A DNA stretch of 64,000 nucleotides. Source: Escherichia coli. Lineage in GTDB: Bacteria > Pseudomonadota > Gammaproteobacteria > Enterobacterales > Enterobacteriaceae. Where the stretch lies: assembly GCF_048403405.1 (NCBI RefSeq), contig NZ_CP183129.1. The stretch is one strand, 5' to 3'. The position numbers were made by a program, and so were the translations under genes. The notes under the pieces are model-generated. The model was not told the DNA's origin and did no database searches. It was given only the letters and a program-made list of their open reading frames with translations. Position 1 is the first letter of the stretch, and every line of letters starts with the position of its first letter. Shown in pieces: positions 27,509 through 30,892 of this stretch.

Positions 27509-28318
27509 ATGAGTAATACCGACGCTTCAGGTGAGAAGCGAATGACAGGCACCAGCGAGCGACGAGAACAGATCATTCAGCGTCTGCGACAGCAAGGGAG
27601 TGTGCAGGTTAACGATCTGTCGGCATTGTATGGCGTATCTACTGTGACGATCCGCAACGATCTGGCGTTTCTGGAAAAGCAGGGGATCGCTGTGCGTGCC
27701 TATGGCGGCGCGTTGATCTGCGATAGCACGACGCCGTCAGTCGAGCCATCAGTGGAAGATAAAAGCGCGCTGAACACCGCAATGAAACGCAGCGTTGCGA
27801 AAGCTGCCGTTGAGTTGATTCAGCCAGGTCATCGGGTAATCCTCGATTCCGGGACCACCACTTTTGAGATTGCTCGTCTGATGCGCAAGCACACTGACGT
27901 AATTGCGATGACCAACGGTATGAACGTGGCTAATGCGTTGCTGGAAGCGGAAGGCGTTGAGCTGCTGATGACCGGCGGGCATTTGCGCCGTCAGTCGCAA
28001 TCTTTTTACGGCGATCAGGCTGAGCAATCGCTGCAAAATTACCACTTCGATATGCTGTTTCTTGGTGTAGATGCGATCGATCTGGAGCGCGGCGTCAGCA
28101 CACATAATGAAGATGAAGCTCGTTTAAACCGCCGGATGTGCGAAGTTGCGGAACGGATCATCGTGGTCACCGATTCCAGTAAGTTCAATCGTTCCAGTTT
28201 ACATAAGATCATTGATACTCAACGTATCGACATGATCATTGTTGATGAAGGCATTCCTGCGGATAGTCTGGAAGGGCTGCGAAAGGCTGGGGTTGAAGTG
28301 ATTCTGGTCGGGGAGTGA
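27509..28318 (+). CDS. agaR: DeoR-family repressor of the aga operons AgaR
   Basis: ORF track 269 aa; N-terminal HTH and DeoR C-terminal domain; recognised as AgaR. Confidence 0.93.
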
Positions 28319-28372
28319 GAAAGGGTGCCCGCTGGTCAACACGAATGCGTTCGGCGGGCATTGTGAACACCA

Positions 28373-28837
28373 TCAATGGGTTTCTTCTGTCTCTCGGGTG
28401 AGGGTTTCCCAGTCGGCAGGAGGATGTCCTCTTTTTAACATTTTGCTGAATACGGTATAGGCATCTGTTTTTTTACCGTAGGTGCGCAGAGTGTTTTCAT
28501 CGTTCATCCATCCCAGAATGATGACTTTCTCTTTTTCACTATAACGAAAGAAGAGACGATAACGACCAGCACCAAATTTTACCCGTGACCAGTCTTTATT
28601 TTTCCCAGAGCCTAACGACTTGCCATGACGGAATGCCGGTGATGATGGATTGACCGTGATATGCTCCTCAATCACTTTATGGACTACCGCCAATAACTTT
28701 GTGGCGGCTTTTCTCTGATAATTTTCAGGATCTTTTCCCTTTAATGTCTCGACTTCGGCAACTAAAGCGTCGTAGGTTTCCTGAAAACAGGGATGAGCAT
28801 ATAGCGCCCAACCATTAACCCTTTGTGGAAAATCCAT
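28373..28837 (-). CDS. yhaV: type II toxin YhaV (ribosome-dependent mRNA endoribonuclease)
   Basis: ORF track 154 aa; recognised as YhaV; its start overlaps the prlF stop. Confidence 0.92.
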   Translation of the reverse strand: MDFPQRVNGWALYAHPCFQETYDALVAEVETLKGKDPENYQRKAATKLLAVVHKVIEEHITVNPSSPAFRHGKSLGSGKNKDWSRVKFGAGRYRLFFRYSEKEKVIILGWMNDENTLRTYGKKTDAYTVFSKMLKRGHPPADWETLTRETEETH

Positions 28838-29172
28838 TATTCGTCGTCGCCAATCTCATCATCAATGTTGACGTCCATGCCAGCGACAAGTTTCTTTCCT
28901 TGTTGAATGTTGAATGGACGAGTTTTTTGCGGGGTGTTCTGGATATCTGCATCCAGAAAACGCAAAAATGCATTCATAGTATGATCCTCCTGTTCATCTC
29001 CCAGTCGGCACATAAATACTTGCCCACCAGGCAGAATTTCGTAATGAATGCTGTCCTGGCCTGGCTTCAGTTTTAAGGCCTCACGCACTGGCGCGGGGAT
29101 AGTTGTTTGTCCGCGTATCGTGACCTTTGATTCAGTGGTCAGTACAGCGTGAGAGCGAGCATTAGCGGGCAT
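28837..29172 (-). CDS. prlF: antitoxin PrlF (SohA), AbrB/SpoVT-type
   Basis: ORF track 111 aa; acidic C-terminus; recognised as PrlF; paired with yhaV. Confidence 0.92.
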   Translation of the reverse strand: MPANARSHAVLTTESKVTIRGQTTIPAPVREALKLKPGQDSIHYEILPGGQVFMCRLGDEQEDHTMNAFLRFLDADIQNTPQKTRPFNIQQGKKLVAGMDVNIDDEIGDDE

Positions 29173-29228
29173 GATTCACTGTCCTTTTACAGCCTGTTTT
29201 CTGCTCAAATTATAAGCTTGAACTAAGG

Positions 29229-29244
29229 TAATGCAAATGCATTA
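29229..29244. promoter_or_regulatory. palindrome TAATGCA-aa-TGCATTA upstream of prlF, candidate PrlF-YhaV operator
   Basis: Perfect 7-bp inverted repeat with 2-bp spacer about 60 bp upstream of the prlF start; operator role inferred from autoregulation of TA modules. Confidence 0.4.
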
Positions 29245-29269
29245 TTAATGTACGTGGGGGCTTTAAACA

Positions 29270-29297
29270 ATAAAAACATGGCACTAAGGCCATGTTT
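29270..29297 (-). terminator. rho-independent terminator of garD
   Basis: Hairpin AAAACATGGC...GCCATGTTTT followed on the minus strand by a U-run. Confidence 0.55.
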
Positions 29298-29320
29298 TGC
29301 GAGGGACGTTCCAAAAGAAA

Positions 29321-30892
29321 TCAGGTCACCGGTGCCGGGTTAAACACCGCCAGCTGGTTATGCAGTCCCCATTGATCTGAGAAGGTTTTCTTCTTCCCGC
29401 TGGCGACGTCGAGAATAAAGTGGAACAACTTCCAGCCCACCTCTTCAATAGTTTCTTCGCCGGTAGCGATGGTGCCCGCATTAATATCCATTAAATCAAA
29501 CCAGCGGTTCGCCAGCTCGGTGCGGGTCGCCATTTTAATGACGGGTACCGCCATCAGGCCGTACGGCGTACCGCGACCGGTCGTAAACACTTGCACGGTA
29601 ATCCCTGAAGCCACCTGTTGTGTGCCACAGACAAAATCACTGGCTGGCGTCGCGGCGTAAATTAATCCGCGTTTAGTCGGGCGTTGACCGGGCGACAGCA
29701 CTTCAACAATTGCACTTTTACCCGATTTAGCAATGGAGCCGAGCGCTTTCTCCACCACGTTTGCCAGACCGCCTTTCTTGTTGCCCGGCGAAGGGTTGGC
29801 GCTGCGGTCGGTTTTTCCCATATTGAGATAGTTATCGTACCACTCCATCTCCTCCAGCAGCCGTTTGCCGACCTCTTCGTTCACTGCGCGTGGTGTCAGC
29901 AGATGGATCGCGTCACGCACTTCCGTGACTTCTGAAAACATCACCGTTGCGCCGCAGCGCACCAGTAGATCAGACGCATACCCAACCGCCGGGTTTGCCG
30001 TTACGCCAGAAAACGCATCGCTACCGCCGCACTGCATGCCGACAACCAGTTCTGAAGCCGGACAGGTTTCTCGCTGCCGTTGATTCAGTTTGTGCAAATG
30101 GCGTTCGGCGACCTGCAAAATATCCTCGACCATGGACTGAAAACCGACATGCTTTTCATCCTGCAAACTGACAATGCTGGCGCTTTCTACTGGAATAGCT
30201 TGCACATCATCCGTTCCAGTCAGCAGGCGTTCAGGCTGCAACTTTTCACAACCCAGACCAATCACCATTACTTCGCCGCCAAAGTTAGGGTTCAGCGAAA
30301 TATTGTGAATGGTACGAATAGGCACAACTGCCGCCGGTGCGTTAATCGCCACGCCACAACCGTACAAATGATTCAGCCCCACCACGCCATCGACGTTCGG
30401 GTATTTCGGTAGCAGATCGCGTTCAATGATTTTTACTACATAGTCCACCACGCCTGCCACACAGTGGACGCTGGTGGTGATGCCGAGCAGGTTTTTAGTG
30501 CCCACGCTGCCATCGGCATTGCGATAGCCCTCAAAGGTGTATCCTTCCAGTGGCGGTAAGGGTGCCGGGACTTTGGTTGCCAGTGGCAGCGTGTGTAACG
30601 GTGGCGCTTCCGGTAGCACAACCATTGATTCGTCGATCCAGCTTCCGCGTGGGATTGCGCGCACGGCGTAACCAATCACTTCGCCATAACGAATAATTTC
30701 ACCATTAGCCGGAATGTCCAGCAATGCGACTTTATGCCCCTGGGGAATATGTTCAATTAATTCCAGCCCATCCGGAAAACGCGTTCCTGCTTTCAGGCCA
30801 TTATCATTAACAATAATTGCCACATTATCTGTGTCGTGAACTTTTATATAAAACGCAGTTGGCGTTTCTTGTCTGATTTCGATGTTGGCCAT
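29321..30892 (-). CDS. garD: galactarate dehydratase GarD
   Basis: ORF track 523 aa; recognised as GarD. Confidence 0.95.

What the first reader, a model, noticed from the sequence alone, without database searches (positions are those of the whole stretch)
28373..29250. prlF-yhaV toxin-antitoxin module with a palindromic candidate operator
The antitoxin (111 aa) and toxin (154 aa) genes overlap at the stop/start junction. A perfect palindrome TAATGCA-aa-TGCATTA lies about 60 bp upstream of prlF, consistent with autoregulation by the PrlF-YhaV complex. The module sits between the convergent agaR and garD genes.
Basis: partly seen in the sequence, partly recalled or inferred. Interest (0 to 1): 0.35.

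Follow-up and report, generated by a model that had tools for sequence, protein, structure and literature searches.

The report
E. coli prlF-yhaV toxin-antitoxin operator
This is the well-known E. coli prlF-yhaV toxin-antitoxin gene pair, and the small palindrome in front of it is very probably the DNA site where the antitoxin-toxin complex shuts off its own promoter, so the finding is correct but ordinary.

Summary
The window is E. coli chromosome. prlF (111 aa, 28837-29172, minus strand) and yhaV (154 aa, 28373-28837, minus strand) share one base at TAATG. They lie between agaR (+) and garD (-). The perfect palindrome TAATGCA-aa-TGCATTA sits at 29229-29244, with 56 nt between it and the prlF ATG.

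A 7-2-7 palindrome alone is no rarer than chance in 64 kb. Position and conservation make it meaningful:
- It covers the -35 element of a predicted sigma-70 promoter with a perfect TATAAT.
- It is identical in at least 4979 of 5426 complete E. coli genomes.
- Its core, AATGCA-NN-TGCATT, recurs just upstream of YhaV-linked prlF homologues that share only 29-45% protein identity. These include enterobacterial plasmids, Alphaproteobacteria and a Deinococcota genome.
- About 80 control loci with other AbrB-type antitoxins lack it.

A review states that Schmidt et al. 2007 showed the PrlF-YhaV complex binding a palindromic sequence in the prlF promoter. I could not read that paper, so the exact published site is unverified.

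Verdict: supported, already known, low interest.

One side observation may be new. A PrlF subclade with Lys at residue 27 uses a different box core, GTAAGGAA..TTCCTTAC, in the same 18-bp frame.

The parts
28837..29172 (-). prlF (sohA), the antitoxin and autorepressor, 111 aa. It has an N-terminal AbrB/MazE-type swapped-hairpin DNA-binding domain (residues ~14-50, motif IRGQTTIPAPVR) and an acidic C-terminal tail.
   Evidence: ORF. Pfam PF15937 at E=2.4e-41, with a weak PF04014 MazE match. A family profile hits AbrB-family N-domains 5itj/2l66 at E~2e-4. RefSeq name.
28373..28837 (-). yhaV, a RelE-superfamily ribonuclease toxin, 154 aa. Its ATG shares one base with the prlF stop (TAATG).
   Evidence: ORF. 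Pfam PF11663 at E=7.8e-54, full length. Junction sequence. RefSeq name.
29229..29244 (.). Perfect palindrome TAATGCA-AA-TGCATTA, the candidate PrlF-YhaV operator ('PrlF box'). The conserved family core is AATGCA-NN-TGCATT (29230-29243). The 18-bp frame 29228-29245 reads ATAATGCATTTGCATTAC on the gene strand.
   Evidence: Inverted repeat I2. Sequence checked. Exact copy in >=4979 E. coli genomes. Conserved upstream of distant homologues. Literature statement.
29209..29237 (-). Predicted sigma-70 promoter of prlF-yhaV. The -35 is TTTGCA (29237-29232), or alternatively TTGCAT at 29236-29231, and lies inside the palindrome. A 17-nt spacer precedes a perfect -10 TATAAT (29214-29209). The predicted start is near 29202.
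   Evidence: Promoter scan, 10 of 12 matches. Coordinates. The -10 and its 13-nt distance from the box are conserved in Pseudocitrobacter and Enterobacter although the spacer sequence differs. No experimental start site was seen.
29273..29298 (-). Intrinsic terminator hairpin of garD (10-bp stem, 6-nt loop, T-run). It separates garD transcription from the prlF promoter.
   Evidence: Inverted repeat I1. Terminator scan.
29173..29201 (-). Predicted prlF 5' leader with an AGGA Shine-Dalgarno about 10 nt before the ATG. It contains GTAAAAGGACAGTGA, a loose match to a CpxR-type GTAAA-N5-GTAAA box.
   Evidence: Sequence. CpxR-dependent repression of prlF is reported in PMC9600279. The site assignment is my inference only.
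27509..28318 (+). agaR, a DeoR-family repressor. It is the flanking gene that converges on yhaV.
29321..30892 (-). garD, galactarate dehydratase. It is the flanking gene upstream of prlF, on the same strand.

Best explanation
The locus is the chromosomal type II toxin-antitoxin operon prlF-yhaV of E. coli. The palindrome at 29229-29244 is its operator.

**Proposed mechanism.**
- PrlF dimerises through its N-terminal AbrB/MazE-type swapped-hairpin domain.
- Its C-terminal part holds YhaV, a ribosome-dependent RelE-type mRNA endonuclease, in an inactive PrlF2-YhaV4 complex.
- That complex recognises the box AATGCA-NN-TGCATT and, according to the literature, binds it cooperatively as a dimer of hexamers.
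- In E. coli the box contains the -35 hexamer of the promoter, 13 nt upstream of a perfect TATAAT. A bound complex should therefore block RNA polymerase and repress the operon.
- Loss of the labile antitoxin would free both the toxin and the promoter.

**Status of each step.**
- Shown here: gene identities, gene overlap, the palindrome, its overlap with the predicted promoter, and its conservation linked to prlF-yhaV across phyla.
- Taken from the literature: complex stoichiometry, binding to a palindrome in the promoter, the toxin acting as co-repressor, and YhaV RNase activity.
- Inferred: that the published palindrome is this one, repression by -35 occlusion, and one PrlF dimer per 8-9-bp half-site by analogy with the VapBC2-DNA structure 3ZVK.
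For: **Identity.** Pfam assigns PF15937 and PF11663. The DNA is 100% identical to an E. coli chromosome annotated prlF/yhaV, and the locus is present in 5134 of 5426 complete genomes.

**Position.** The palindrome is I2. The -35 TTTGCA lies inside it and a perfect TATAAT follows.

**Conservation within E. coli and relatives.**
- A 36-nt megablast query centred on the palindrome hits 4979 genomes. Any 28-nt exact seed in that query must span 29227-29246, so all 4979 carry the exact 16-mer.
- The most divergent promoter alleles, E. albertii and the cryptic Escherichia clades keep it while the flanks vary.

**Deep conservation.**
- The same box lies upstream of prlF-yhaV in a Deinococcota MAG (35% protein identity) and a Rhizobium MAG (29%).
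- It also occurs on Pantoea, Citrobacter, Bradyrhizobium and Roseobacteraceae plasmids, and on viral and metagenome contigs.
- The chance of the 12 specified bases falling within 200 nt is about 1e-5 per locus.

**Specificity.** Among distinct loci, the best 8-2-8 palindrome upstream scores 7-8 of 8 pairs in 25 of 33 YhaV-linked loci. It does so in only 5 of 82 loci with other AbrB-type antitoxins.

**Literature.**
- The complex binds the palindromic DNA of the prlF promoter as (PrlF2-YhaV4)2 (PMC7781912).
- The toxin may act as co-repressor (PMC8138530).
- PrlF controls prlF-yhaV expression (PMC5408214).

**Fold.** A PrlF family profile matches AbrB-family N-domains.
Against: - No binding data could be examined. 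The primary paper (Schmidt et al. 2007) is not held, so the identity of the published site with 29229-29244 is inferred.
- The promoter and start site are predictions only.
- A 7-2-7 palindrome is not statistically unusual in the window by itself.
- The stoichiometry on the box cannot be settled from sequence. The two TGCA cores are only 6 bp apart, and in the variant box type the half-sites are not internally symmetric.
- No PrlF or YhaV structure exists in the PDB copy searched.
Confidence: 0.9

Rival explanations
1. The palindrome is only the AT-rich -35 region of the prlF promoter, with symmetry by chance. The real PrlF-YhaV operator would then lie elsewhere in the intergenic region or the leader.
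For: Perfect 7-2-7 palindromes occur at chance frequency in the window, and 32 of 100 shuffles gave a match with up to 2 mismatches. The exact published site could not be checked.
Against: The same 14-bp core follows prlF-yhaV into unrelated genomic contexts and phyla where the promoter layout differs. In Alphaproteobacteria it lies after a TTGACA -35 rather than on it. No other element upstream is conserved in this way. The only other notable inverted repeat is the garD terminator.
Confidence: 0.04
2. The palindrome is the binding site of another regulator, such as CpxR, AgaR or a nucleoid protein, rather than of PrlF-YhaV.
For: prlF mRNA is reported to fall on Cpx activation, partly dependent on CpxR (PMC9600279). 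agaR lies next door.
Against: The box co-occurs with prlF-yhaV genes on plasmids and in phyla that lack this neighbourhood. Its core changes together with the PrlF DNA-binding loop. It does not resemble GTAAA-N5-GTAAA. A loose CpxR-like match lies instead in the leader at about 29176-29190.
Confidence: 0.03
3. The palindrome acts at the RNA level, as a hairpin in a garD 3' end or in a prlF leader.
For: It lies 30 nt downstream of the garD terminator on the same strand.
Against: A 2-nt loop cannot close an RNA hairpin. The predicted prlF start lies downstream of it. A proper terminator already precedes it. No Rfam family matches at E<=1.
Confidence: 0.01

Closest known systems
E. coli K-12 prlF(sohA)-yhaV type II toxin-antitoxin system (Schmidt et al. 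2007, J Mol Biol 372:894)
   Same: It is the same genes, the same neighbours (garD and agaR) and the same gene order. The intergenic DNA differs from K-12 MG1655 at 1 of 64 promoter bases, and that base lies outside the box. The literature describes autoregulation through a palindromic sequence in the promoter.
   Different: Nothing of substance differs. This strain carries a minority allele at a base flanking the box: only 1267 genomes match all 36 bases around the palindrome, and 3711 differ at one flank base.
mazEF / MazE operator ('alternating palindrome')
   Same: The antitoxin has an AbrB/MazE-type swapped-hairpin N-domain (weak PF04014 match, profile match). The antitoxin gene comes first. 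The TA complex autorepresses at palindromic DNA in the promoter.
   Different: The toxin is RelE-like (YhaV), not MazF. There is a single compact 16-18-bp box rather than overlapping alternating palindromes across two promoters.
Rickettsia felis VapBC2 bound to its operator (PDB 3ZVK, PMC3326315)
   Same: It has a swapped-hairpin antitoxin dimer, a hexameric TA complex in solution, and a palindromic operator with two half-sites, each read by one antitoxin dimer in the major groove. It is the best structural model for how PrlF may read its box.
   Different: The toxin is a PIN domain. The operator is 27 bp, with ~10-bp internally palindromic AT-rich half-sites and a linker. The PrlF box is only 18 bp. 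VapB-type loci found here lack the PrlF box.

Membership tests
PrlF-YhaV type II toxin-antitoxin family | The antitoxin belongs to the PrlF family (Pfam PF15937). | tested here: met
   E=2.4e-41, 140 bits against a cut-off of 32, covering profile positions 1-99 of 99.
PrlF-YhaV type II toxin-antitoxin family | The toxin belongs to the YhaV family (Pfam PF11663, RelE superfamily). | tested here: met
   E=7.8e-54, 182 bits against a cut-off of 35, covering profile positions 1-137 of 138.
PrlF-YhaV type II toxin-antitoxin family | A two-gene operon with the antitoxin first and the genes abutting or overlapping. | tested here: met
   TAATG one-base overlap at 28837. The same order is seen in all homologous loci examined.
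PrlF-YhaV type II toxin-antitoxin family | The antitoxin N-terminus is an AbrB/MazE/SpoVT-type swapped-hairpin DNA-binding domain. | tested here: met
   The family profile matches AbrB-family N-domains 5itj, 5itm and 2l66 (E~2e-4) and SpoVT (E~0.01) over residues 8-49. There is a weak PF04014 match below the cut-off. The fold itself was not modelled.
PrlF-YhaV type II toxin-antitoxin family | The toxin inhibits growth by mRNA cleavage and is neutralised by the antitoxin in a tight complex. | not testable with these tools
   Literature only: PMC7781912 and PMC11980606.
Type II TA autoregulatory operator | A palindromic or repeated site overlapping the core promoter of the TA operon. | tested here: met
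   Perfect 7-2-7 palindrome that contains the predicted -35 hexamer, 13 nt upstream of TATAAT. The promoter is predicted, not mapped.
Type II TA autoregulatory operator | The site is conserved with the antitoxin family and absent from unrelated antitoxin loci. | tested here: met
   The core AATGCA-NN-TGCATT occurs in 20 of 20 distinct lineages of non-Lys27 PrlF. A related box in the same frame occurs in Lys27 lineages. About 80 VapB-like control loci lack it.
Type II TA autoregulatory operator | The site is physically bound by the antitoxin or TA complex, with repression of transcription. | not testable with these tools

The most novel reading that the evidence does not exclude
The PrlF box is an ancient operator that has travelled with prlF-yhaV across phyla. 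The family may hold a simple, readable protein-DNA specificity switch.

All homologues keep an 18-bp frame, roughly GTAA-N10-TTAC.
- Proteins with a small or non-basic residue at E. coli position 27 (motif R-x-Q-T-T-x-P-A/P/S/E/G) have the core TGCA..TGCA.
- Proteins with Lys27 (motif K-G-Q-T-T-x-P-K) have GGAA..TTCC.
- Three Lys27 loci carry boxes that are neither pure type: two clear hybrids and one irregular.

If real and unreported, this would give a natural pair of orthogonal swapped-hairpin repressor/operator sets and a testable recognition code for the AbrB/MazE fold.
Probability: 0.4. Interest if true: 0.4.

Novelty: already known. Interest (0 to 1): 0.15.

Why it matters
For the window itself it matters little. 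It is a correct annotation of a textbook E. coli toxin-antitoxin locus and of its probable operator, which was characterised biochemically in 2007.

The comparative work adds three modest points.
- The box core AATGCA-NN-TGCATT, rather than the full 16-mer, is what the family conserves, over very large evolutionary distances.
- Its placement always overlaps core promoter elements. It sits on the -35 in enterics and between the -35 and -10 in Alphaproteobacteria.
- A subclade has switched box core together with residues in the DNA-binding loop. With no PrlF or PrlF-DNA structure solved, that split gives a cheap experimental handle on how swapped-hairpin antitoxins read DNA.

Tried and rejected
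**Reading the primary literature.** I tried PubMed 17706670 and PMC2699681, then Snyder & Silhavy 1992 (PMC206513) and Baird & Georgopoulos 1990 (PMC208636). None is held.

**Other literature routes.**
- Full-text search for the operator sequence found only unrelated papers.
- The Reg-Seq papers list prlF and yhaV among their targets but give no result in the text.
- Searches for SELEX, ChIP-exo or RegulonDB data on PrlF found nothing usable.

**Searches that returned little.**
- A single-protein scan of genome contigs returned only 12 loci.
A 4-sequence alignment worked.
- PDB sequence searches for PrlF and YhaV found no solved structure.

**Readings rejected.**
- An RNA-level role was rejected: no Rfam match and a 2-nt loop.
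- I looked by eye for a second, degenerate box 17-18 bp from the first in E. coli, as seen in the tandem arrays on Pantoea and Citrobacter plasmids. I found none. No tool was run for this.
- I considered each TGCA core as the dyad of one PrlF dimer. I left this open because the variant-type half-sites are not internally symmetric.
- The internal promoter-like match at 28865-28836 and the terminator-like matches inside the genes are at the level expected from shuffles. I treat them as chance.

Full report
**What is there.** The window is E. coli chromosome. The 1031 bases 28300-29330 are 100% identical to strain TUM14771, and 5134 of 5426 complete E. coli genomes carry at least 80% of this stretch. 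The annotated features under the match are agaR, yhaV, prlF and garD.

The ORF list gives prlF at 28837..29172 (-) with 111 aa, and yhaV at 28373..28837 (-) with 154 aa. agaR lies at 27509..28318 (+) and garD at 29321..30892 (-). Pfam confirms all four:
- prlF matches PF15937 PrlF_antitoxin at E=2.4e-41.
- yhaV matches PF11663 Toxin_YhaV at E=7.8e-54.
- agaR matches DeoR HTH plus DeoRC.
- garD matches the galactarate dehydratase domains.

The junction reads GAATAATGGAT on the gene strand, so the prlF stop TAA and the yhaV ATG share one base at 28837. The palindrome TAATGCA-AA-TGCATTA occupies 29229-29244, with 7-nt arms that are 100% complementary. 56 nt separate it from the prlF ATG.

**Is the palindrome more than chance?** Taken alone, it is not. 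The window holds 2 perfect 7-2-7 palindromes against about 3.9 expected. The specific pattern with up to 2 mismatches appeared in 32 of 100 shuffles. Its significance has to come from position and conservation.

**Position.** The 148-nt garD-prlF spacer contains two organised elements.
- The first is a textbook intrinsic terminator for garD at 29273-29298 (10-bp stem, 6-nt loop, T-run).
- The second is the palindrome.

The only strong sigma-70 prediction on the prlF strand has its -35 (TTTGCA, 29237-29232) inside the palindrome. A 17-nt spacer and a perfect TATAAT (29214-29209) follow, giving 10 of 12 matches. With a start near 29202, the box would span roughly -42 to -27. The distance from the box to the TATAAT is 13 nt in E. 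coli, in Pseudocitrobacter and in Enterobacter sp. BIGb0383, although the spacer sequences differ. No RNA family matches the region, and a 2-nt loop excludes an RNA hairpin.

**Conservation within Escherichia.** I queried a 36-nt stretch centred on the palindrome with megablast. Any 28-nt exact seed in that query must span 29227-29246, so every hit carries the exact 16-mer. It hits 4979 of 5426 genomes. About 5160 genomes carry the promoter region at all.

The most divergent promoter alleles I fetched still have the intact box. These were strains M21816, CI5 and the B-lineage strain AS19, which has a 1-nt deletion and several substitutions between the box and the -10. E. albertii and the cryptic-clade Escherichia also keep it while the bases on both sides vary. 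The roughly 150-190 genomes not captured by the seed test were sampled rather than enumerated.

**Conservation beyond Escherichia.** This is the decisive evidence. The same box lies just upstream of YhaV-linked prlF homologues that share only 29-45% protein identity.

| Source | Box or boxes |
|---|---|
| Deinococcota MAG | GTAATGCAAATGCATTAC |
| Rhizobium MAG | ATAATGCATTTGCATTAC |
| Pantoea megaplasmids | two tandem boxes 17 bp apart |
| Citrobacter plasmid | three boxes 18 bp apart |
| Bradyrhizobium and Roseobacteraceae plasmids | one box directly after a TTGACA -35 |
| Viral and metagenome contigs | further type A boxes |

The invariant core is AATGCA-NN-TGCATT, and the central dinucleotide is free. 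The chance of these 12 bases falling within 200 nt is about 1e-5 per locus.

As a control, I scored the best 8-2-8 palindrome in the 200 nt upstream of each distinct locus. It reaches 7-8 of 8 pairs in 25 of 33 YhaV-linked loci, and it is usually the box itself. It reaches that score in only 5 of 82 loci that encode other AbrB-type antitoxins paired with PIN toxins. The box is therefore specific to the PrlF-YhaV family, not to the fold or to promoters in general.

**Literature.** A 2020 review states that PrlF-YhaV forms a PrlF2-YhaV4 heterohexamer. [quoted passage not shown] 2007 (PMC7781912).
- Another review lists prlF-yhaV among systems where the toxin may act as co-repressor (PMC8138530).
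- A third states that PrlF controls the operon as a DNA-binding protein (PMC5408214).
- YhaV is described as a ribosome-dependent mRNA endonuclease.

The primary paper is not held. Identity between the published site and 29229-29244 is therefore an inference. It is a strong one, because this is the only such palindrome in the promoter.

**Mechanism.**
- Shown here: the gene pair, the overlap, the box, its overlap with the predicted -35, and its family-specific conservation.
- From the literature: the complex binds a palindrome in this promoter and represses it.
- Inferred: repression works by excluding RNA polymerase from the -35. In Alphaproteobacteria the exclusion would be from the spacer and -10, where the box follows TTGACA.

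The PrlF N-domain aligns with AbrB-family swapped-hairpin domains. In the one DNA-bound structure of this fold in a TA system, VapBC2 (3ZVK), each antitoxin dimer reads one half-site in the major groove and two dimers occupy one palindrome (PMC3326315). By analogy, two PrlF dimers, one per hexamer, would read the two 8-9-bp halves of the box, which fits the reported dimer of hexamers. This last step is analogy only. No PrlF or YhaV structure is in the PDB copy searched.

**Side result: two box types.** All homologues share an 18-bp frame, approximately GTAA-N10-TTAC.
- In 20 of 20 distinct lineages where PrlF has a non-lysine at E. coli position 27 (motif R-x-Q-T-T-x-P-A/P/T/S/E/G/R), the core is TGCA..TGCA or a close variant.
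- In lineages with K-G-Q-T-T-x-P-K, 9 have GTAAGGAA..TTCCTTAC-like boxes.
- Two of the Lys27 lineages have hybrid boxes (L031 GTAAGGAATTTGCATTAC and L140 GTAATGCGATTTCCTTAC) and one is irregular (L150). None has the pure TGCA type.

The prediction was made on plasmid and viral loci and then held in the metagenome set. The Lys27 group may be a single clade, however. The pattern therefore shows a family split, not proven residue-level determinants. I could not establish whether this has been reported.

**Comparison and novelty.** The locus is the known E. coli prlF-yhaV system, so it is a member rather than merely a relative. All sequence-testable family features are met, and the biochemical ones rest on the literature. 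The finding as given is correct and already known. Interest is low, and the box-type split is the only part that might be new.

Noticed in passing
L017-L019 (plasmids), L032, L038, L040, L088 (viral contigs), L128-L130, L135, L137, L139 (metagenome contigs); compare window 29228-29245: A PrlF subclade with Lys at E. coli position 27 (motif KGQTTxPK) has a different palindrome in the same 18-bp frame, GTAAGGAA..TTCCTTAC, in place of GTAATGCA..TGCATTAC. L031 and L140 carry hybrid boxes with one half of each type, and L150 is irregular. This suggests co-variation of operator core and DNA-binding loop.
   Followed up: partly
window 28354-28361 and 29165-29172; L024 (E. coli EC42405, NZ_CP043414.1): An 8-bp direct repeat (ATGCCCGC on the gene strand) sits at the prlF start codon and again about 10 nt after the yhaV stop. 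Strain EC42405 lacks both genes exactly between these repeats but keeps the promoter, the palindrome and the leader. This looks like a natural deletion of the cassette between the repeats.
   Followed up: partly
L023 (E. coli AS19-RrmA-, NZ_CP027430.1): In this B-lineage laboratory strain yhaV is annotated as a pseudogene with an internal stop. The spacer between the box and the -10 has a 1-nt deletion plus substitutions, yet the palindrome is intact.
   Followed up: no
L022 (E. coli EC23HZZ201, NZ_CP168035.1): An IS1A element abuts the garD terminator. In place of prlF-yhaV-agaR, this strain has yraI and yraJ next to the IS1A element, which points to an IS1-associated deletion or rearrangement.
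   Followed up: no
L013 (Citrobacter freundii plasmid p56415CZ_VIM) 534-590; L014 (Pantoea plasmid) 702-735; L029; L115, L117, L118: Some homologues carry two or three tandem PrlF boxes at 17-22-bp spacing, whereas E. coli has one. In the Citrobacter plasmid the three boxes lie about 190 nt upstream of the annotated prlF start, which may be mis-annotated or preceded by a long leader.
   Followed up: no
L020 (Paracoccus sp. TOH plasmid p3): A gene annotated as a PrlF-family antitoxin (80 aa, KGQTTLPKSVR) is paired with a VapC/PIN toxin rather than YhaV. It has a different upstream repeat pattern (AATGCG-N11-CGCATT). Many similar short AbrB-type antitoxin/PIN pairs appeared in the viral and metagenome scans without any PrlF box.
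   Followed up: partly
window 29176-29190 (- strand GTAAAAGGACAGTGA): There is a loose match to the CpxR direct-repeat consensus (GTAAA-N5-GTAAA, consensus recalled from memory) in the prlF leader. A published screen reports CpxR-dependent down-regulation of prlF (PMC9600279), but I did not see which site that paper predicted.
   Followed up: no
window 28319-28372: Only 54 nt separate the convergent stops of agaR and yhaV, and the scan reported no terminator-like hairpin in that gap. Transcripts from the two genes may therefore overlap at their 3' ends.
   Followed up: no
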